From a virus (taxonomy: Duplodnaviria; Heunggongvirae; Uroviricota; Caudoviricetes): a stretch of 8,634 bases of DNA. Below, one piece after another: positions 1,714-8,028 of the stretch (positions are counted from its first letter, which is position 1; each line of letters begins with the position of its first letter). The notes beneath the pieces were generated by a model that saw nothing but the letters and a program-made list of their open reading frames with translations, was not told where the DNA came from and did not search any database. The DNA lies in the IMG/VR virus record IMGVR_UViG_2541047932_000013, positions 1 to 8,634 of that record. The stretch is one strand, 5' to 3'. The position numbers and the translations under genes are program-made.

Positions 1714-1916
1714 AACCTCACTCCCAGCGGACGACGGCGACGGCGGGTTGTCCCCAGTACCGACTCCGCATCATTGATCGCCCGGTTAAGCTCATCCAGA
1801 GAAGCCGCCGTATATTCAATTCTGCGACCATCTTTCTGGACAGACACCACCCGTTTACCGGTTAATAAATCAAGGCGCGCCTGACGCAGCGCCTGCAGTT
1901 CAGCGACTGTAACCAT
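1710..1916 (-). CDS. W: Head-tail joining / head completion protein (lambda gpW family)
   Basis: 68-aa ORF MVTVAELQALRQARLDLLTGKRVVSVQKDGRRIEYTAAS... closely resembles recalled lambda gpW (…[26 protein letters not shown]…). Same length and position between terminase large subunit and portal. Confidence 0.85.
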   Translation of the reverse strand: MVTVAELQALRQARLDLLTGKRVVSVQKDGRRIEYTAASLDELNRAINDAESVLGTTRRRRRPLGVRL

Positions 1917-3828
1917 TCACTCCTCCGGACAGCTTCGCTGCCAGTTCTTTAAGGGTTGGCCGGGTCGTCTCTTCTTCCCGGGATTTTGCCAGTACAGCCA
2001 GATCAAGCTGCCAGCGTTGCACGGACACACGTAATGCCGCGTAGGCATACACCAGGCAGTCCAGCGCTTCGTTACGCCGCTTTTTGTTATCCCACAGCAG
2101 ACGCATCTTTCCTTTTTCCCACTTCTCCACAAGCTCTTCCGCCACCAGTTGCTGCGCCTCTGTCTGCGAAAAAATCTCCGGATCATCAGGAAAACGGATG
2201 GCATACGACGTGGCTTCATCCGCAGGCGTGGGATCGGCTTTCATACGGGCATAGAGAATTTCTTTTGCGGTGTCCGTCCCCACTTCGCACAGATACACGC
2301 CCCGCTGATTGCGGGTTTTTGGCATGGTGATCACCGGCTTGCCATAAACAGATGCACCTTTTACCGGCAGCACCCGGAAAACACCGTGTTTTTTTGACCT
2401 CTGATAGACAATTTCGCCATCGATCCCCCCGGTGTCCCAGCAGACACGGGAAATGGTCATTTCGGTTCCGTCTGCATGGCGGTATTTTTTGTTGATCGCC
2501 ACATCCACACGTAACAGCGTCTCTTCCTCATCGGGACGCCCCATAATGATGATTTTATCCACCAGAAAGGCTTCCTCTCCCGGAGCCCATCCCCAGACAT
2601 ACATCTCAAAACGGTTTCGCTGCGAGTCAATGCCCGCCGTCAGATAAACCACCCGGGAAGGCACCGCAGCCGTGTAACGCACAACCTTATCCATCAGCAC
2701 CTGGTGATCGAGTTTTTCGCCCACGGCCTCTTCCCAGGTCTCGCCCAGCGTGGTGTTCACAAAGGTTTTCAGGCCGTTGGGATCTTTCAGTGCATCCAGC
2801 CAGTCATAGACAATCTGTACCCAGGTGGTGAACGGACTGTACGCCGTCCAGATATGGAATGTGATGGAGCGCGGCGGCGGAATTTCATTATCCGCGGCGC
2901 TGAAAAACGTCAGACCGTCGCGGGTCCACATGCCCGTGTTTTCGCAGATCCACCGCCCGTTGCTCTGGTCAAGCTCAGACTGATGGATCACGCAGCCATG
3001 ATGTTCACAGAGGTAGAAAACGCTTTCGGGGCTGTCCTTCTCCCATTTAAGGCCAAAAGGCGTGGACTCATCGCCAAATTTCAGATACTGCGCCTCCCCA
3101 CAGTGCGGGCAGGACACATAAAAACGCATGAAATGCGCCGACTCGTTGGCCGCTTTTTCGATCTGGCAGGAGCCTTTTATTTTAGGCGTCGAGCCGCGAA
3201 TGGATTTTGGCCATACCGAGCCCTCAATACGCTTATCCCCCAGCAGGGTTGGCGAGCCCTCTTTTTCGACATCCGGCTCGAACGAGGAAAGTTCGTCATA
3301 GCAGACCACGTCCACGGATTTTTCACGGTAGTTTTTTGCTGCCGCACCACCCAGGCACCAGAAGCCCACCCCCGATGAAAAGCGTTTCAGCGTGAGAGTA
3401 TTGTCACGATGTTTACGACCCAGCCACGGGGAAAGGTCTTTCAGGCATGGCACGTCCCGAATCGTCGCCTCCACGTGAGACTTCATAAAATCTTCAGCGG
3501 CAGAATCCGTGGGCTGAAAAAGCAGACTGTTTCGGGATTTATGCTCAATAAAATACCCGGCGACTCCCAGCAACATCTTTGTATAGCCAACACGGGCAGA
3601 TTTAATCAGATTAACAGTGCGGATCTGATCATTCCCCATACTGTTCATGATGGCGATCTGGAACGGCAGCGTTTTCCATTCGCCGTCACCGTATGAGGAT
3701 TCTTTAGGCAGATAATAATACTGGTCAGCCCATTCAACTGCCGTCATCGGTACAACCCTGACCAGAGGCTGCAGCGCAACCGAAACGGCGGCCACCATAT
3801 TATTCAGTTGTTGCTCTGATATATTCAT
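1900..3828 (-). CDS. A: Terminase large subunit (lambda gpA family)
   Basis: Strong similarity along the whole length to recalled lambda gpA (TAVEWADQYYYLPKES…, KRFSSGVGFWCLGGAAAKNYREKSVD, WTAYSPFTTWVQIV, RNEALDCLVYAYAALR). The six-frame ORF extends to 3885, but the homologous start is the internal ATG at 3826-3828 (MNISEQQ… versus lambda MNISNSQ…). Confidence 0.9.
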   Translation of the reverse strand: MNISEQQLNNMVAAVSVALQPLVRVVPMTAVEWADQYYYLPKESSYGDGEWKTLPFQIAIMNSMGNDQIRTVNLIKSARVGYTKMLLGVAGYFIEHKSRNSLLFQPTDSAAEDFMKSHVEATIRDVPCLKDLSPWLGRKHRDNTLTLKRFSSGVGFWCLGGAAAKNYREKSVDVVCYDELSSFEPDVEKEGSPTLLGDKRIEGSVWPKSIRGSTPKIKGSCQIEKAANESAHFMRFYVSCPHCGEAQYLKFGDESTPFGLKWEKDSPESVFYLCEHHGCVIHQSELDQSNGRWICENTGMWTRDGLTFFSAADNEIPPPRSITFHIWTAYSPFTTWVQIVYDWLDALKDPNGLKTFVNTTLGETWEEAVGEKLDHQVLMDKVVRYTAAVPSRVVYLTAGIDSQRNRFEMYVWGWAPGEEAFLVDKIIIMGRPDEEETLLRVDVAINKKYRHADGTEMTISRVCWDTGGIDGEIVYQRSKKHGVFRVLPVKGASVYGKPVITMPKTRNQRGVYLCEVGTDTAKEILYARMKADPTPADEATSYAIRFPDDPEIFSQTEAQQLVAEELVEKWEKGKMRLLWDNKKRRNEALDCLVYAYAALRVSVQRWQLDLAVLAKSREEETTRPTLKELAAKLSGGVNGYSR

Positions 3829-4309
3829 CGAGTAAATCCGGTAATTTATCCCCTGCCCGCGCACACTGATTTGCCCCCTTCGCAATAAGGGTTTTCAGAT
3901 GGTCAAGATGGCGCGGTGTTAAATCAGGAAACTGTCGCTGCATGGATAAAGGGATGGAATCAAGCGTACTGGATAACGCCATTGCCAGCTTACTGAGGGC
4001 AAAAATACAGAACCCGGTGTCAATAAGTTTTCCTTTTGACACCTCATTTTTTAACTGCTGTGTAACAGCCTGTTCTGCTGTCAGTTCCCATCTGGCAATA
4101 AGCAATTTCTCCTCATAGTCGTCTTCGCTATCGCCATCAGGCACATCGTTTTTACTTCTCCTCAGATACGATATGTAAAAATCGCGCCAGGCATCCAGAT
4201 CCAGTTGCCCTCGCTTATTCGATATCGGGGCACCCGGTAATTTCTGCAATCTGCGAAGCTGGCGATCGGTCAGACTTAAATGCCTGGCAACTTCAGTCTG
4301 CGTAGCCAC
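3800..4309 (-). CDS. nu1: Terminase small subunit, Nu1-like, with a divergent N-terminal DNA-binding domain
   Basis: C-terminal half (DTGFCIFALSKLAMALSSTLDSIPLSMQRQFPDLTPRHLDHLK…LPDLLDEYI) matches the recalled lambda Nu1 gpA-interaction region. The N-terminal ~90 aa (MATQTEVARHLSLTDRQLRRLQ…) is HTH-like but not lambda-like. GTG start with GAGGTGAGGA immediately upstream; the 3' end overlaps the A start. Confidence 0.8.
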   Translation of the reverse strand: MATQTEVARHLSLTDRQLRRLQKLPGAPISNKRGQLDLDAWRDFYISYLRRSKNDVPDGDSEDDYEEKLLIARWELTAEQAVTQQLKNEVSKGKLIDTGFCIFALSKLAMALSSTLDSIPLSMQRQFPDLTPRHLDHLKTLIAKGANQCARAGDKLPDLLDEYIRATTE

Positions 4310-4346
4310 TCCTCACCTCGCAAAAACTCTCACCTCACAATCACAA

Positions 4347-4455
4347 CAAAACCGGTCATGTCCGGTTTACATGTCTGTTTTTTGTTCATGTCCGGTTCAC
4401 AGAAGACCTGTTTTTATATTTTTCATATAGTTAACTTGAAGAGAAACCGGACATG
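4347..4455. promoter_or_regulatory. cosB-like terminase binding region with three copies of a CATGTCCGGTT(y)AC element
   Basis: Seen directly: catgtccggtttac at 4347-4360, catgtccggttcac at 4387-4400, and the inverted copy aaccggacatg at 4445-4455. An AT-rich spacer (4401-4444) separates the second and third copies. The block lies between cosN and the nu1 start, as lambda R1/R2/R3 and I1 do. Confidence 0.6.
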
Positions 4456-4492
4456 GATCCCGGAAAATTTTCATAAATAGCGAAAACCCGCG

Positions 4493-4504
4493 AGGTCGCC
4501 GCCC
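4493..4504. other. cosN, the 12-nt cohesive-end sequence (reverse complement of GGGCGGCGACCT)
   Basis: Plus strand 4461-4504 is the exact reverse complement of the first 44 nt of the lambda left end as recalled (GGGCGGCGACCTCGCGGGTTTTCGCTATTTATGAAAATTTTCCG). The flanking 4505-4560 resembles the lambda right end (…CCGTAACC.GTCGGATC.CCGGAAAGGACC…). Confidence 0.85.
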
Positions 4505-4710
4505 CGTAACCGGTCGGATCGCCGGAAAGGACCCACGAAATGATAATGATTATCATCTATATAAGGTTTATCACAACATGTGTGTACGCCATCAAACCAC
4601 GAGAAATAATCAATTATGACGCAGGTATCGTATTAATTGATCTGCGTCAAATTAACGTAAAAGCAACTTCAGATAATACAAATCAGCAACACTGAATATG
4701 GGGAAACATT

Positions 4711-4896
4711 ATGTCATCAAAGAACAGAACCCGCAGAACAACAACCCGCAACATCCGATTTCCAAACCAGATGATTGAACAAATTAACATCGCTCTTGAT
4801 CTGAAAGGTTCAGGAAACTTTTCAGCGTGGGTTATTGAAGCCTGCAGAAGAAGGCTGTCAACAGAGAGTTCGGGTATGAATTACATAATTAAGTAA
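4711..4896 (+). CDS. Small basic protein, possibly a ribbon-helix-helix DNA-binding protein, of the kind found next to cos in lambdoid prophages (YlcI/DUF3950-like by recollection)
   Basis: 61-aa ORF MSSKNRTRRTTTRNIRFPNQMIEQINIALDLKGSGNFSAWVIEACRRRL…: basic N-terminus followed by a strand-helix-helix-like pattern. Transcribed opposite to the late operon. GGGGAAACATT lies upstream of the ATG. Confidence 0.55.
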   Translation: MSSKNRTRRTTTRNIRFPNQMIEQINIALDLKGSGNFSAWVIEACRRRLSTESSGMNYIIK

Positions 4897-5519: not shown

Positions 5520-5987
5520 TTATTTCAGGCACTGAGTGCGGATATAGTCCTGTGCCCCTTCCAGTTGCTTGTGCATCGTCATCAGCCGCTCTCTGAGGGT
5601 GAAATAATCCCGTGTAACGGTGTCTGCCAGTTGGGGGCCGGTTGCATTATCCACGCCGGAGGTGGTGGGGGCTTCACGCACGGAGCCTGGACAGGTGGCG
5701 TTGATCCGCAGGCGCTTACGACCAGCGGCAACGTCAGCGCGAAGAGTTTCATTTTCAGCTCTCGCATCGGCTAATTCCTTCGTGTATCTGGCATCAAGCG
5801 CAGCGACATCTCGCTGGCGCTGCTGCATGTCAGTAATAGTGGCATTCGCCAGTTTCAGCTCACTGACTTTTTTATCGCGCTGCGCTTTGTAGGTGATGGC
5901 GTTATCGCGGTAATGATTCAGCCCCAGACTAAGCACACCACAGGCTACCAGCAGGACAATAATCACCACACACAGAACACGGTTCAT
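5520..5987 (-). CDS. Rz: Rz i-spanin (inner-membrane spanin subunit)
   Basis: Very close to recalled lambda Rz ([16 protein letters not shown]…[33 protein letters not shown]…[17 protein letters not shown]). The real start is most likely the internal ATG at 5985-5987 ([13 protein letters not shown]…, N-terminal TMD); the six-frame ORF's extension to 6071 is probably not translated. Confidence 0.9.
5582..5767 (-). CDS. Rz1: Rz1 o-spanin (outer-membrane lipoprotein spanin subunit), embedded in Rz in the +1 frame
   Basis: [61 protein letters not shown] matches recalled lambda Rz1 (…LPLVVVGC…[30 protein letters not shown]…). Lipobox VSAC and a proline-rich tract are present; the gene is fully nested in Rz. 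Confidence 0.88.
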
Positions 5988-6086
5988 ATCACCACCAACG
6001 GATTGCCCAGACCAGAACAGCAATGGCCACAATACGAATGGCAAATGCCATTGCCCGAATAAGTTCAGCACTCATCTTTTTAAAGT

Positions 6087-6200
6087 TCACGATTTCAGCG
6101 CAATGACCAGTTTTGCCAGCCCATACAGCATCGGAGACACAGCAATACCAACAGCCACCCACTTAATAGCAAAAGCCAGCGCTCTGCTGATGTCATCAGT
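6087..6200. repeat. Direct repeat, copy 1 (~114 bp, ~94% identical to 6352-6465)
   Basis: Hand alignment: 7 mismatches in 114 nt against the copy 265 bp downstream. The flanks differ on both sides. Confidence 0.9.
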
Positions 6201-6209
6201 CACTGTCAC
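6087..6209 (-). CDS. Candidate 40-aa membrane peptide, a paralog of the 6352..6534 ORF; no ATG, putative GTG start coupled to the upstream stop
   Basis: The minus frame encodes (M)TVTDDISRALAFAIKWVAVGIAVSPMLYGLAKLVIALKS. It differs from the downstream copy by one I/V substitution despite 7 nucleotide differences. GTG at 6207-6209 overlaps the TGA of the preceding ORF (GTGA). Confidence 0.3.
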   Translation of the reverse strand: MTVTDDISRALAFAIKWVAVGIAVSPMLYGLAKLVIALKS

Positions 6210-6337: not shown

Positions 6338-6351
6338 GCTTAATCCTCCCT

Positions 6352-6465
6352 TCACGATTTCAACGCAATGACCAGTTTTGCCAGCCCATACAGCATCGGG
6401 GACACAGCAACACCGACCGCCACCCACTTAATGGCAAAAGCCAGTGCTCTGCTGATGTCATCAGT
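6352..6465. repeat. Direct repeat, copy 2
   Basis: See copy 1. Confidence 0.9.
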
Positions 6466-6534
6466 TACAGGCGCTTTCAGTTCAAGGCCATTTTTCATAG
6501 TCAACCTCAACAGAATTCGTTTATACTTCGCCAT
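6352..6534 (-). CDS. Candidate small membrane peptide (60 aa from the ATG at 6532-6534, or 48 aa from the ATG at 6496-6498)
   Basis: …MKNGLELKAPVTDDISRALAFAIKWVAVGVAVSPMLYGLAKLVIALKS. GAGG lies 6 nt upstream of the 6498 start and GGGAG 3 nt upstream of the 6534 start. The C-terminal 38 codons are duplicated at 6087-6200. Confidence 0.4.
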   Translation of the reverse strand: MAKYKRILLRLTMKNGLELKAPVTDDISRALAFAIKWVAVGVAVSPMLYGLAKLVIALKS

Positions 6535-6567
6535 GTTCTCCCTTGCCTTACTCAAGGTCAGAAACAC

Positions 6568-6690: not shown

Positions 6691-7224
6691 TTATCTGTCG
6701 ATACCCCAGCACGCCAGCGCGCTCTCCTGGTCACGACGGGATACCTGACCGTAGCAGTTGTTTGAACGAATACGGCAGTCTCTGCCACCGTCCTTAATCC
6801 ACCAGCGAATCGCCTCACATGCTCCCCTGCGATCACCAGCATTAATTCGTCTGTAAAACGTCGACGGGAAACACTTACCGGGACCAATGTTGTACGGACA
6901 GAATGACGCGATCCCCGCTTTCTGGGGTTCGGTCAATGGCACTTTGATGTTTTTCTCCACCCATGCCAGCGCCTTATCACGTTCGATGGCGTTAACCTGG
7001 TCGCATTTCTCCTTCGACAACTTCATGCCCGGGACGACAGGTTTACCATCCACCAGAATGGCACCGCGACAGATGGTCCAGATACCCGCGCCATCACGGT
7101 ATGCCGTGGTGTGGTTACCTTCCTTTTCATCCAGAAACTGGTCGAGAATGTCAGGCGCAGGCGCACCAGCGGCAATCAGCGCCAGAACGGCAGCCGACAG
7201 GCCGTATTTGATTTTGGTGTTCAT
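6691..7224 (-). CDS. R: Endolysin, T4-lysozyme-type (GH24), with an N-terminal signal-anchor-release-like hydrophobic segment
   Basis: 177-aa ORF. N-terminal KYGLSAAVLALIAAGAPA hydrophobic stretch, followed by a lysozyme catalytic E…D…T spacing (EKEGNHTTAYRDGAGIWT). It is partnered with an S21-type pinholin. Confidence 0.85.
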   Translation of the reverse strand: MNTKIKYGLSAAVLALIAAGAPAPDILDQFLDEKEGNHTTAYRDGAGIWTICRGAILVDGKPVVPGMKLSKEKCDQVNAIERDKALAWVEKNIKVPLTEPQKAGIASFCPYNIGPGKCFPSTFYRRINAGDRRGACEAIRWWIKDGGRDCRIRSNNCYGQVSRRDQESALACWGIDR

Positions 7225-7821: not shown

Positions 7822-8028
7822 CTAATCTCCCCGGGCAGCCTTGCGACGGTCCTCTCTGATTTTGAAATACAGGTTAGTCAGATACGTCAGCAGGCCAAAC
7901 AGCAGACTCCCCAGCACACCTATCGCCACCCACTGGGACGGAGAGACTTTGTCCAGCAGCTGCAGTAACCAGTATCCCGTCCCCACCGCTGACGTGGTGT
8001 ATGACACACCCGTTGTGATTTTTTCCAT
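7822..8028 (-). CDS. S: Class II holin (pinholin), phage 21 S21-like
   Basis: 68 aa: [68 protein letters not shown]. It is nearly colinear with the S21 pinholin as recalled (two TMDs, …[14 protein letters not shown]…[21 protein letters not shown]). Confidence 0.88.

What the first reader, a model, noticed from the sequence alone, without database searches (positions are those of the whole stretch)
4340..4570. Chimeric cos site: lambda-identical cosN with a non-lambda cosB and a matching divergent Nu1 DNA-binding domain
The 44 nt around cosN are an exact match to the lambda left end as I recall it, and the right-end side is near-identical. Immediately after TTTTCCGG the sequence diverges from lambda cosB and instead carries three CATGTCCGGTT-type elements, two direct and one inverted, around an AT-rich spacer. 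In parallel, the small terminase keeps a lambda-like C-terminal (gpA-binding) domain but has a different N-terminal HTH domain. This is the pattern expected for a packaging-specificity switch (as between lambda and 21), so these repeats are probably the R sites recognised by this Nu1 variant.
Basis: partly seen in the sequence, partly recalled or inferred. Interest (0 to 1): 0.5.

Follow-up and report, generated by a model that had tools for sequence, protein, structure and literature searches.

The report
Uncharacterised cosB class in lambdoid prophage
This is the DNA-packaging start site of a lambda-like E. coli prophage: the cutting site is identical to lambda's, but the adjacent recognition repeats and the DNA-binding head of the small terminase are a matched, non-lambda pair. 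That pair is common in E. coli, and I found no description of it in the cos literature I could search.

Summary
The window lies in reverse lambda orientation, so lambda bp n equals window 4505-n. Bp 1-45 of the left end match lambda 45/45 and cosQ (GGGTCCT) is present. Identity then drops to about 27%. CATGTCCGGTT boxes sit at bp 50-61, 107-118 (inverted) and 137-148 (inverted), around a 72% A+T spacer whose best IHF-like match lies where lambda I1 lies.

The small terminase aligns to lambda Nu1 only over aa 73-164 (46%). Its first 55 residues are predicted to form the same winged helix-turn-helix fold, with about 17% identity.

This pair is not that of phage 21, N15/Monarch, Gifsy-1 or lambda. 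In about 30 distinct relatives, from Enterobacteriaceae to Azospirillum and Pseudomonas phage, nearly all with this kind of recognition helix (about 26) carry a TCCG-type core at the R3 position; four with a different helix do not. Arg20 helices pair with TGTCCGG and non-Arg helices with TTCCGG.

The boxes are conserved within the population, and near-identical PhiR12 phages are deposited as phage isolates. The module occurs in 1156 of 5426 complete E. coli genomes.

Verdict: a real cosB with lambda architecture and a different, uncharacterised predicted specificity. Binding is inferred, not shown.

The parts
4528..4534 (-). cosQ (GGGTCCT), 30 nt before the left cohesive end
   Evidence: Sequence. 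It has the same offset as in lambda and 21. It is invariant in 43 haplotypes and present in nearly all related loci.
4493..4504 (-). cosN 12-nt cohesive-end sequence GGGCGGCGACCT (lambda bp 1-12)
   Evidence: Identical to lambda. Nicking itself is inferred from lambda.
4460..4504 (-). Lambda-identical left-end segment bp 1-45 (cosN plus the cosN-to-cosB spacer, the I2 region). The mosaic junction follows TTTTCCGG.
   Evidence: 45/45 identity. The blastn alignment to lambda ends exactly at lambda bp 45.
4444..4455 (-). R3-equivalent box CATGTCCGGTTT, bp 50-61
   Evidence: Exact repeat. It overlies lambda R3 (bp 50-65, with the contacted bp 55-63; PMC9026076). 0/11 columns vary in 43 haplotypes. 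The core sits at the same bp in all complex type-A loci.
4421..4433 (+). Candidate IHF site I1 (TTTCATATAGTTA, bp 72-84, bottom strand in lambda orientation)
   Evidence: It has 2 mismatches to WATCAANNNNTTR, which is not significant alone. It is positionally orthologous to perfect matches in L013, L014 and L016, and to lambda I1 (also 2 mismatches) and 21 I1.
4387..4398 (+). R2-equivalent box CATGTCCGGTTC, inverted relative to R3, bp 107-118
   Evidence: It sits at the same position as the annotated R2 of phage 21 (bp 107-122). 3/11 columns vary.
4357..4368 (+). R1-equivalent box CATGTCCGGTTT, in the same orientation as R2, bp 137-148
   Evidence: 2/11 columns vary. A box at a similar position is present in L013 and L019, absent in L014-L018, and in the opposite orientation in L111.
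4349..4360 (-). Overlapping 11/12 copy CATGACCGGTTT in R3 orientation (bp 145-156), which makes an 18/20 palindrome with R1
   Evidence: It is less conserved (6/11 variable columns, mostly from two haplotypes). Its function is uncertain.
4370..4380 (+). Degenerate copy CATGTCTGTTT, probably not functional
   Evidence: 2 mismatches. 7/11 columns vary, and the copy is lost in PhiR12_2.
4145..4309 (-). terS codons 1-55: type-A winged-HTH DNA-binding domain (helix 15-22, wing about 31-36, helix 38-54)
3800..4309 (-). terS (Nu1-family small terminase, 169 aa, GTG start)
   Evidence: Pfam PF07471, E 1e-18 over aa 49-150. 99.4% identical to PhiR12 Nu1.
1900..3828 (-). terL (gpA homologue). The real start is the ATG at 3828, not the TTG at 3885.
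   Evidence: Pfam GpA_ATPase and GpA_nuclease. 65.7% identity to lambda gpA, starting at ORF residue 20. PhiR12 has the same 29-nt terS/terL overlap.

Best explanation
Window 4340-4560 is the cos site of a lambda-like prophage, read on the minus strand. TerL (a gpA homologue) would nick the lambda-identical cosN. It would be positioned there by the small terminase, whose N-terminal winged-HTH domain ('type A') binds the CATGTCCGGTT boxes of cosB.

The box nearest cosN (R3, bp 50-61) and the inverted box (R2, bp 107-118) flank an A+T-rich spacer with an IHF-type site at the lambda I1 position. A TerS dimer would therefore bridge R3 and R2 across an IHF-induced bend, as modelled for lambda. The third box (R1) is accessory.

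Because the boxes and the recognition helix differ from those of lambda, 21 and N15, this terminase should package only DNA carrying this cosB. It would still share cosN and cosQ, and hence cohesive ends and termination signals, with lambda.

Shown: the sequence anatomy, the fold prediction, co-occurrence and covariation across relatives, and population conservation. Inferred: binding, IHF use, nicking and specificity.
For: 1. Anatomy and geometry match the lambda/21 paradigm.
- cosQ lies at -30 and cosN is 45/45 identical to lambda.
- The R3 core is at bp 54-60, the inverted R2 at bp 108-114, the best IHF match at bp 72-84, and the terS start at bp 196.
- For comparison, lambda R3 is bp 50-65 with TerS contacts at bp 55-63 (PMC9026076). 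The annotated R3, I1 and R2 of phage 21 are at bp 50-65, 72-86 and 107-122.

2. The DNA-binding domain and the motif co-occur.
- Every complex type-A locus (Klebsiella, Salmonella, Citrobacter, Enterobacter, E. coli) has xxxTCCGGTT at bp 54-56 and AACCGGAxxx at bp 107-109.
- Most distant type-A loci carry a tandem TTCCG(G/C)TTCCGGTT at bp about 48-70, just upstream of terS. These include Microbulbifer, Azospirillum, marine Gammaproteobacteria, Pseudomonas phage LPPA33 and E. coli phage 705R4. A few carry only one or a degenerate unit.
- Loci with N15-type or lambda-type domains lack the motif and carry their own boxes.

3. Protein and DNA covary. All four distinct helices with Arg at residue 20 pair with (A/G)TGTCCG. 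One of them is a distant lineage with a simple cosB (L119). All 19 distinct non-Arg helices that have TCCG boxes show TTCCG in their main boxes (Fisher p = 6e-4).

4. The population footprint fits. Among 43 distinct haplotypes, R3 has 0/11 variable columns, R2 3/11 and R1 2/11. The rest of cosB has 46/117 (p = 0.007).

6. The module is probably functional. PhiR12_1 to PhiR12_5 are deposited as phage isolates with E. coli K-12 or C listed as host. They carry TerS at 99.4% aa identity and cos plus terS at 96.6% nt identity.

7. The module is modular. Near-identical C-terminal domains are fused to three different N-terminal domains.
Against: - There is no binding, footprint or packaging data for this terminase or cosB.
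- The IHF match in this window has 2 mismatches. Such matches are no more frequent than chance across the window (58 found against 72 expected).
- R1 is oriented like R2, not like R3 as in lambda, 21 and Monarch. It is missing in several relatives, so the three-site model is only partly transferable.
- The covariation test is not corrected for phylogeny. The covarying base (bp 53) lies 5' of where a simple transfer of the lambda E24-to-bp-56 register would put residue 20.
- The domain is not detectably related to Nu1 by sequence search. hhalign probability is only 30%.
- The left half of the box (TCATGTC) resembles the phage 21 R consensus, so some cross-recognition cannot be excluded.
Confidence: 0.8

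Rival explanations
1. The boxes are diverged phage-21-type R sites, and this phage shares (or partly shares) 21's packaging specificity rather than having its own.
For: The 21 R boxes read (T)TTCATGTCGG(A/G)CC or ATCGTGTCGGTAC. The window boxes read TCATGTCCGGTT, so they share TCATGTC plus GG. R3 and R2 sit at the same bp positions. The lysis cassette is also 21-like, with the P21 holin family.
Against: - The TerS N-terminal domain shows no sequence similarity to 21 gp1. tblastn aligns only aa 64-166.
- The conserved core across all type-A relatives is TCCGGTT, not CATGTC. The D/N-helix subgroup has CATTTC or CACTTC instead.
- 21 has one base fewer between GTC and GG, and a different 3' half.
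Confidence: 0.05
2. The inverted repeats act as an RNA stem in the late transcript, or as a DNA cruciform, that regulates terS translation. They are not protein-binding sites.
For: The 12-nt arms at 4444-4455 and 4357-4368 are perfectly complementary (4387-4397 matches 11 nt), and they pair in the minimum-free-energy fold.
Against: - The fold is not more stable than shuffles (z = -0.89; 34 of 200 shuffles fold at least as well).
- Distant relatives carry the same core as tandem direct repeats, which cannot pair.
- Some arm pairs are not complementary at their outer bases, for example CATTTCC against GATTTCC in L013.
- Lambda, 21 and Monarch have the same inverted layout, and it is attributed to protein sites.
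Confidence: 0.03
3. The boxes are bound by another factor, for example the adjacent DUF3950 ribbon-helix-helix-like protein (4711-4896) or a host regulator, and TerS recognises something else.
For: A small conserved putative DNA-binding ORF lies 250 bp away, on the cosQ side.
Against: - That ORF lies in the segment that is 88.6% identical to lambda, and lambda has no such boxes.
- The boxes track the TerS N-terminal domain type and its residue 20 across distant taxa.
- Their positions coincide with the lambda and 21 R sites.
Confidence: 0.04
4. This is a decayed, non-functional cos in a cryptic prophage. The repeats are relics with no present role.
For: - The window is not identical to any complete E. 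coli genome (best 96.8%).
- Many E. coli lambdoid prophages are defective (my general knowledge, not tested here).
- A degenerate box copy exists at 4370-4380.
Against: - terS, terL, W, the portal gene and the lysis genes are all intact ORFs.
- The boxes are identical to those of the deposited PhiR12 phage isolates.
- The boxes are under visible constraint in the population.
Confidence: 0.08

Closest known systems
Bacteriophage lambda cos (cosQ-cosN-cosB with R3-I1-R2-R1) and gpNu1
   Same: - cosQ is the same, and cosN plus bp 13-45 are identical.
- An R3-position box lies at bp 50-61, with an inverted R2 about 55 bp further on.
- An IHF-like site sits at the same bp as I1, with the same number of consensus mismatches.
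- The terS start is at bp 196 against 191.
- TerS has an N-terminal winged HTH, a helical core and a C-terminal domain 46% identical to Nu1. TerL is 66% identical to gpA.
   Different: - The box sequence is CATGTCCGGTT, against lambda's CGTTTCC core.
- The DNA-binding domain is about 17% identical and is not found by BLAST or Pfam.
- R1 is oriented like R2, not like R3.
- An extra overlapping palindromic copy is present.
Phage 21 cosB and gp1, the classic lambda/21 specificity pair
   Same: The principle is the same: shared cosQ and cosN, private cosB plus a private TerS recognition helix. R3, I1 and R2 lie at the same coordinates. The left half of the box (TCATGTC) is similar.
   Different: The 21 domain is clearly lambda-like, at more than 50% identity to Nu1 over the N-terminus. 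This one is not alignable by sequence search. The conserved core differs (TCCGGTT against GTCGG).
N15/Monarch specificity group (Feiss et al. 2015, PMC4669245)
   Same: It is a third TerS N-terminal sequence family on a Nu1-type body. It exists in both a 'simple' form (single R3, as in N15) and a 'complex' form (R3-I1-R2-R1, as in Monarch). Type A shows the same duality: tandem boxes next to terS in distant relatives, and the complex form in this window.
   Different: The boxes are GAGGTTGTTGTT-type and the domain starts MAxLLNKSDMA.... In type A the simple form is a tandem doublet with a 6-bp period, not a single site plus a remote rR2.
Rpp proteins of Gram-negative PICIs (RppC, PDB 6HN7)
   Different: Rpp lacks the TerL-binding C-terminus and works as a heterodimer with the phage TerS. 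This protein is a full-length TerS, and identity to RppC is only 17%.

Membership tests
Lambda-type cos site | cosN: a 12-nt 5' cohesive-end sequence with conserved flanking bases | tested here: met
   Bp 1-45 match lambda 45/45. Actual nicking was not testable.
Lambda-type cos site | cosQ heptamer GGGTCCT about 30 bp upstream of the left end | tested here: met
   Window 4528-4534. It has the same offset as lambda and 21 and is invariant in 43 haplotypes.
Lambda-type cos site | An R3 repeat at about bp 50-65 and an inverted R2 about 50-60 bp further on | tested here: met
   Boxes lie at bp 50-61 and bp 107-118, inverted, with the 11-nt core CATGTCCGGTT exact in both.
Lambda-type cos site | An IHF site (I1) between R3 and R2 | tested here: inconclusive
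   TTTCATATAGTTA at bp 72-84 has 2 mismatches, which is not above chance alone. Perfect consensus matches occur at the same bp in L013, L014 and L016, and lambda I1 also has 2 mismatches.
Lambda-type cos site | R1 in the same orientation as R3 (opposite to R2) | tested here: not met
   The exact R1 box (4357-4368) is oriented like R2. Only an overlapping 11/12 copy (4349-4360) has the R3 orientation. R1 is absent or variable in relatives.
Lambda-type cos site | TerS binds the R boxes and positions TerL for nicking | not testable with these tools
   Inferred from co-occurrence, covariation and conservation only.
Nu1-family small terminase (Pfam PF07471) | A Pfam Phage_Nu1 match above the gathering score | tested here: met
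   67.9 bits against a 30-bit cut-off. Only aa 49-150 align, to profile positions 62-163.
Nu1-family small terminase (Pfam PF07471) | An N-terminal Nu1-type winged-HTH DNA-binding domain | tested here: inconclusive
- Sequence level, not met: no Pfam hit, no PDB sequence hit, and hhalign probability of 30%.
Phage 21 packaging specificity | A 21-type recognition helix (PRTIERWQ) and R boxes C(A/G)TGTCGG | tested here: not met
   The helix is DRQLRRLQK and the boxes are CATGTCCGGTT. tblastn to 21 gp1 covers only aa 64-166.
N15/Monarch packaging specificity | The MAxLLNKSDMA... domain and GGTTGTTGT boxes | tested here: not met
   These features are seen in L020, L021 and N15, but not in the window.

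The most novel reading that the evidence does not exclude
Type A is a fourth packaging-specificity family of lambda-like cos phages, after lambda, 21 and N15, and it has not been tested experimentally. It uses a very diverged winged HTH that reads a TCCGGTT core.

It appears to be split into two sub-specificities: Arg20 with TGTCCGG, and Asp/Asn20 with TTCCGG. It exists in a 'simple' tandem-box form across Proteobacteria and in a lambda-like R3-I1-R2 form in Enterobacteriaceae.

This would document how a whole cosB scaffold can be re-coded for a new DNA-binding domain while cosQ, cosN and the I1 position stay fixed.
Probability: 0.55. Interest if true: 0.55.

Novelty: new member of a known kind. 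Interest (0 to 1): 0.42.

Why it matters
Lambda packaging specificity is a textbook case of protein-DNA co-evolution. Feiss et al. (PMC4669245) state that only three specificities (lambda, 21, N15) are documented, and that more diversity would be expected because co-resident prophages would otherwise mis-package each other.

This module is found in 21% of complete E. coli genomes (1156/5426). By the same measure the 21 type is found in 14%.

Its specificity determines three things:
- which prophages, cosmids or PICI-like elements can be mobilised by which helper phage in pathogenic E. coli carrying several lambdoid prophages;
- whether lambda-based packaging tools will work on these elements;
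- which recombinants between co-resident lambdoid prophages are viable.

The Arg20-to-G covariation also gives a concrete, testable contact for a winged-HTH terminase.

Tried and rejected
- Searching papers for the box sequence returned only unrelated hits.
- The two most relevant Feiss papers (PMC4461450 and PMC5006951) are not held. I therefore cannot exclude that this cosB class is mentioned there.
- Searches for the PhiR12 source paper found nothing.
- A PDB sequence search with the domain profile gave only insignificant HTH hits.
- The IHF consensus scan in the window alone is uninformative. Only positional comparison with relatives helps.
- The fifth, degenerate box copy (4370-4380) was rejected as functional because it is not conserved.
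- The CCGGTT next to cosN on the right-end side (4508-4513) was rejected because that stretch varies among haplotypes and is absent in relatives.
- The first viral-contig scan returned only near-identical loci. These were useful for the population footprint but not for covariation, so two further scans with divergent queries were needed.
- Identity with phage 21, N15, Gifsy-1 or lambda-type cosB was checked and rejected.
- The RNA-structure reading was rejected.

Full report
**Orientation and context**

The window is a lambda-like morphogenesis and lysis junction in reverse orientation. All genes below are on the minus strand.
- Portal, a gpB homologue: 121-1713.
- W: 1710-1916.
- TerL, a gpA homologue: 1900-3828.
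- TerS, a Nu1 homologue: 3800-4309, with a GTG start.
- cos.
- A 21-type lysis cassette: Rz/Rz1 at 5520-6071, lysozyme at 6691-7224 and a P21-family holin at 7822-8028.

In lambda orientation, bp n of the left end equals window coordinate 4505-n.

**Checking the observation**

- The left end GGGCGGCGACCT begins at window 4504. The first 45 bp match lambda 45/45.
- cosQ (GGGTCCT) lies 30 nt upstream, at window 4534-4528.
- blastn against lambda joined at cos gives one segment, window 4845-4460 aligned to lambda 48169 through bp 45, at 88.6% identity. It stops exactly after TTTTCCGG.
- Beyond that point, ungapped identity to lambda cosB is 39/145.
- The terminase genes are only 66-69% identical at the DNA level. 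gpA is 65.7% identical in protein, and the portal 61%.

The cos region is therefore mosaic. It has a lambda-like cosQ/cosN block, a non-lambda cosB, and moderately diverged lambda-family terminase genes.

CATGTCCGGTT occurs exactly three times, at 4357-4367 (+), 4387-4397 (+) and 4445-4455 (-). A given 11-mer is expected about 0.004 times in this window (my arithmetic). There is also a 1-mismatch copy at 4350-4360 (-). It overlaps the 4357 box and forms an 18/20 palindrome with it. A 2-mismatch copy lies at 4370-4380. All copies with 0 or 1 mismatch lie within 106 bp. The spacer between the inverted pair is 72% A+T.

**The small terminase**

- tblastn and BLASTP align TerS to lambda Nu1 only over aa 73-164 (45.7%), to 21 gp1 over aa 64-166 (39.8%) and to N15 gp1 over aa 59-164.
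- Pfam Phage_Nu1 matches aa 49-150 only.
- The first 55 residues hit no Pfam family and no PDB sequence.
- AlphaFold models them with pLDDT 87 as strand, helix (4-10), helix (15-22), wing, helix (38-54).
- hhalign places the helix-turn-helix in register with lambda Nu1, aligning window Q4-G34 to lambda K5-G34. Probability is only 30%.

**Is it simply phage 21 or another characterised phage?**

No.
- The annotated R boxes of phage 21 are AATCGTGTCGGTACTT, TTTCATGTCGGACCTT and TTTCATGTCGGGCCTT, with a lambda-like domain.
- N15 and the 'Monarch-like' loci L020 and L021 carry GGTTGTTGT boxes, with an MAxLLNKSDMA... domain.
- Gifsy-1 carries AGATCC boxes, with a lambda-like domain.
- In the phage collection, only PhiR12_1 to PhiR12_5 carry this module. 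TerS is 99.4% identical and cos plus terS 96.6% identical. These are 2025 records with E. coli K-12 or C listed as host. Their deposit as phage isolates suggests the module works in a phage that can be propagated.

**Comparative evidence that the boxes are TerS sites**

An alignment of homologues shows near-identical C-terminal halves fused to three unrelated-looking N-terminal domains. I call them type A (this window), type B (N15-like) and type C (lambda/21-like).

I fetched type-A loci from species-representative genomes, assemblies and IMG/VR.

- Every enterobacterial 'complex' locus has a box with core CCGGTT starting at bp 54-56 and an inverted AACCGG at bp 107-109.
- In all but one of them (L019) the best IHF match is at bp 71-73 on the bottom strand.
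- It is a perfect WATCAANNNNTTR in three loci (L013, L014, L016).
- It has 1 mismatch in four (L015, L017, L018, L019).
- It has 2 mismatches in the window, as does lambda's own I1.
- R1 is present in the R2 orientation in the window, L013 and L019. It is absent in L014-L018 and in the R3 orientation in L111. This fits an accessory role.
- Distant type-A loci have cosQ and then, at bp about 48-70 and immediately before terS, usually a tandem TTCCG(G/C)TTCCGGTT. These come from Microbulbifer, Azospirillum, Rhodospirillaceae, marine Gammaproteobacteria, Pseudomonas phage LPPA33 and E. coli phage vB_EcoM-705R4. A few, such as L113, L120 and L010, have only one or a degenerate unit. This is a 'simple' cosB, reminiscent of the N15 versus Monarch duality.
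- Four lineages whose helix is different (QQAVGK-type) lack the CCGG core.

**Covariation**

Residue 20 of the recognition helix is Arg in four distinct helices: TDRQLRRLQK, TERQLRRLQK, DVRQIRRLQQ and TDRHLRRLIQ. All of their boxes read (A/G)TGTCCG. This includes L119, a distant GC-rich lineage with a simple cosB (GTGTCCGTGTCCGGTT).

In the 19 distinct non-Arg helices that have TCCG boxes (D, N, S, T, K or Q at residue 20), the main boxes read TTCCG at the same position. The one G scored in that group is an off-target TCCG next to R2 in the TERWLRDLQK loci. On distinct helices, Fisher's test gives p = 6e-4, not corrected for phylogeny.

By overall TerS identity, the window is closer to Asp20 proteins (81% and 77%) than to other Arg20 proteins (60-71%). 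The helix and the boxes therefore travel together, as a module.

**Population footprint**

Eighty IMG/VR loci plus PhiR12_2 and the window gave 73 usable sequences of window-type cos, falling into 43 distinct haplotypes. The numbers of variable columns are:
- R3: 0/11
- R2: 3/11
- R1: 2/11
- cosQ: 0/7
- the 12-nt cohesive end: 1/12
- the rest of cosB: 46/117

For boxes against the rest of cosB, Fisher's one-sided test gives p = 0.007. The degenerate copy has 7/11 variable columns and is lost in PhiR12, so I discount it. R3 being the most constrained box agrees with lambda genetics (PMC9026076).

**Rivals**

- RNA stem formed by the inverted boxes. This is not supported. The fold z-score is -0.89, and the tandem direct arrangement in relatives cannot pair.
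- Binding by the neighbouring DUF3950 protein. This is unlikely, because that gene lies in the lambda-like block and lambda lacks the boxes.
- Shared specificity with phage 21. The only suggestion is the common TCATGTC left half. The conserved core and the domain both differ.
- A dead relic. This is countered by intact genes, box conservation and the PhiR12 phages.

**Mechanism proposed**

The steps below are inferred by analogy with lambda (PMC4669245 and PMC9026076).
1. A TerS dimer docks its two winged HTHs on R3 and the inverted R2, across an IHF-bent spacer.
2. The C-terminal domain holds TerL.
3. TerL nicks cosN 12 bp apart.
4. cosQ serves termination.

Specificity lies in the helix-box pair. 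Cohesive ends and termination signals are interchangeable with lambda's.

**Novelty**

Feiss et al. state that only the lambda, 21 and N15 specificities are documented. The 2022 review adds phi80 and Gifsy-1 as having three-R architectures. None of the 33 held papers that mention both cosB and cosN appears, from its title and abstract, to concern this class; I read only three of them. Two key subscription papers could not be read.

The protein is routinely annotated as a small terminase (PHROG 57). The module is common: at least 80% of a cosB plus terS-5' query is found in 1156 of 5426 complete E. coli genomes. By the same measure the lambda type is found in 3976 (top listed hits annotated nohD), the 21 type in 761 and this Monarch-type sequence in 24.

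I rate it a new member of a known kind. It has the same architecture and mechanism, with an undescribed recognition pair, and it offers a testable residue-base covariation.

Noticed in passing
window 6086-6203 and 6351-6468: There is a 118-nt direct duplication (93% identical, 265 bp apart) inside the lysis region. It gives two copies of a small predicted membrane ORF ending ...AFAIKWVAVG(I/V)AVSPMLYGLAKLVIALKS (6087-6209 and 6352-6567, minus strand). Neither copy has a Pfam match.
   Followed up: partly
window 4711-4896 (+): A 61-aa DUF3950 ORF reads away from cos, on the cosQ side. Its motif (NIRFPNQMIEQINIAL...) looks ribbon-helix-helix-like to me. It lies in the block that is 88.6% identical to lambda's right end, where NC_001416 annotates no gene.
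   Followed up: partly
L001/L025 (lambda) bp 38-48; window 4460-4467: Lambda itself has TTTTCCGGTTT at bp 38-48. That is a perfect TTCCGGTT core of the Asp/Asn-type type-A box, about 14 bp closer to cosN than R3. The window reads TTTTCCGGGAT at the same place. Whether type-A terminases touch this conserved TTTTCCGG is unknown.
   Followed up: no
L003 (phage 21) R boxes vs window 4357-4455: The phage 21 R consensus (T)TCATGTCGG and the window box TCATGTCCGGTT share their left 7 nt, although the TerS DNA-binding domains are not alignable. This could be chance, shared wing or minor-groove contacts, or descent of the cosB DNA with replacement of the protein.
   Followed up: partly
L004-L012, L022, L023, L113-L121: Distant type-A terminases use a 'simple' cosB. 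It is typically a tandem TTCCGGTTCCGGTT with a 6-bp period at bp about 48-70, with terS starting at bp 75-98 and no R2 or IHF site. This parallels the N15 (simple) versus Monarch (complex) pair. It suggests that the complex architecture was built more than once, or re-coded.
   Followed up: partly
L122-L125, L153-L155: A sub-branch of MATQAEVA... terminases has a different helix (TQQAVGK or SRQAVGD). These loci lack the CCGG core and instead have ...ATA(A)GGGGTTG... before terS. This may be yet another specificity.
   Followed up: no
window 1900-3885: The mechanical ORF for TerL starts at a TTG (3885). The alignment to lambda gpA and the PhiR12 annotation place the real start at the ATG at 3828, which overlaps terS by 29 nt.
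   Followed up: yes
whole window: No complete E. coli RefSeq genome is identical to the window. The best matches are O55:H7 strains, at 96.5-96.8% over 98% of the window. The source is therefore a related but distinct prophage.
   Followed up: partly
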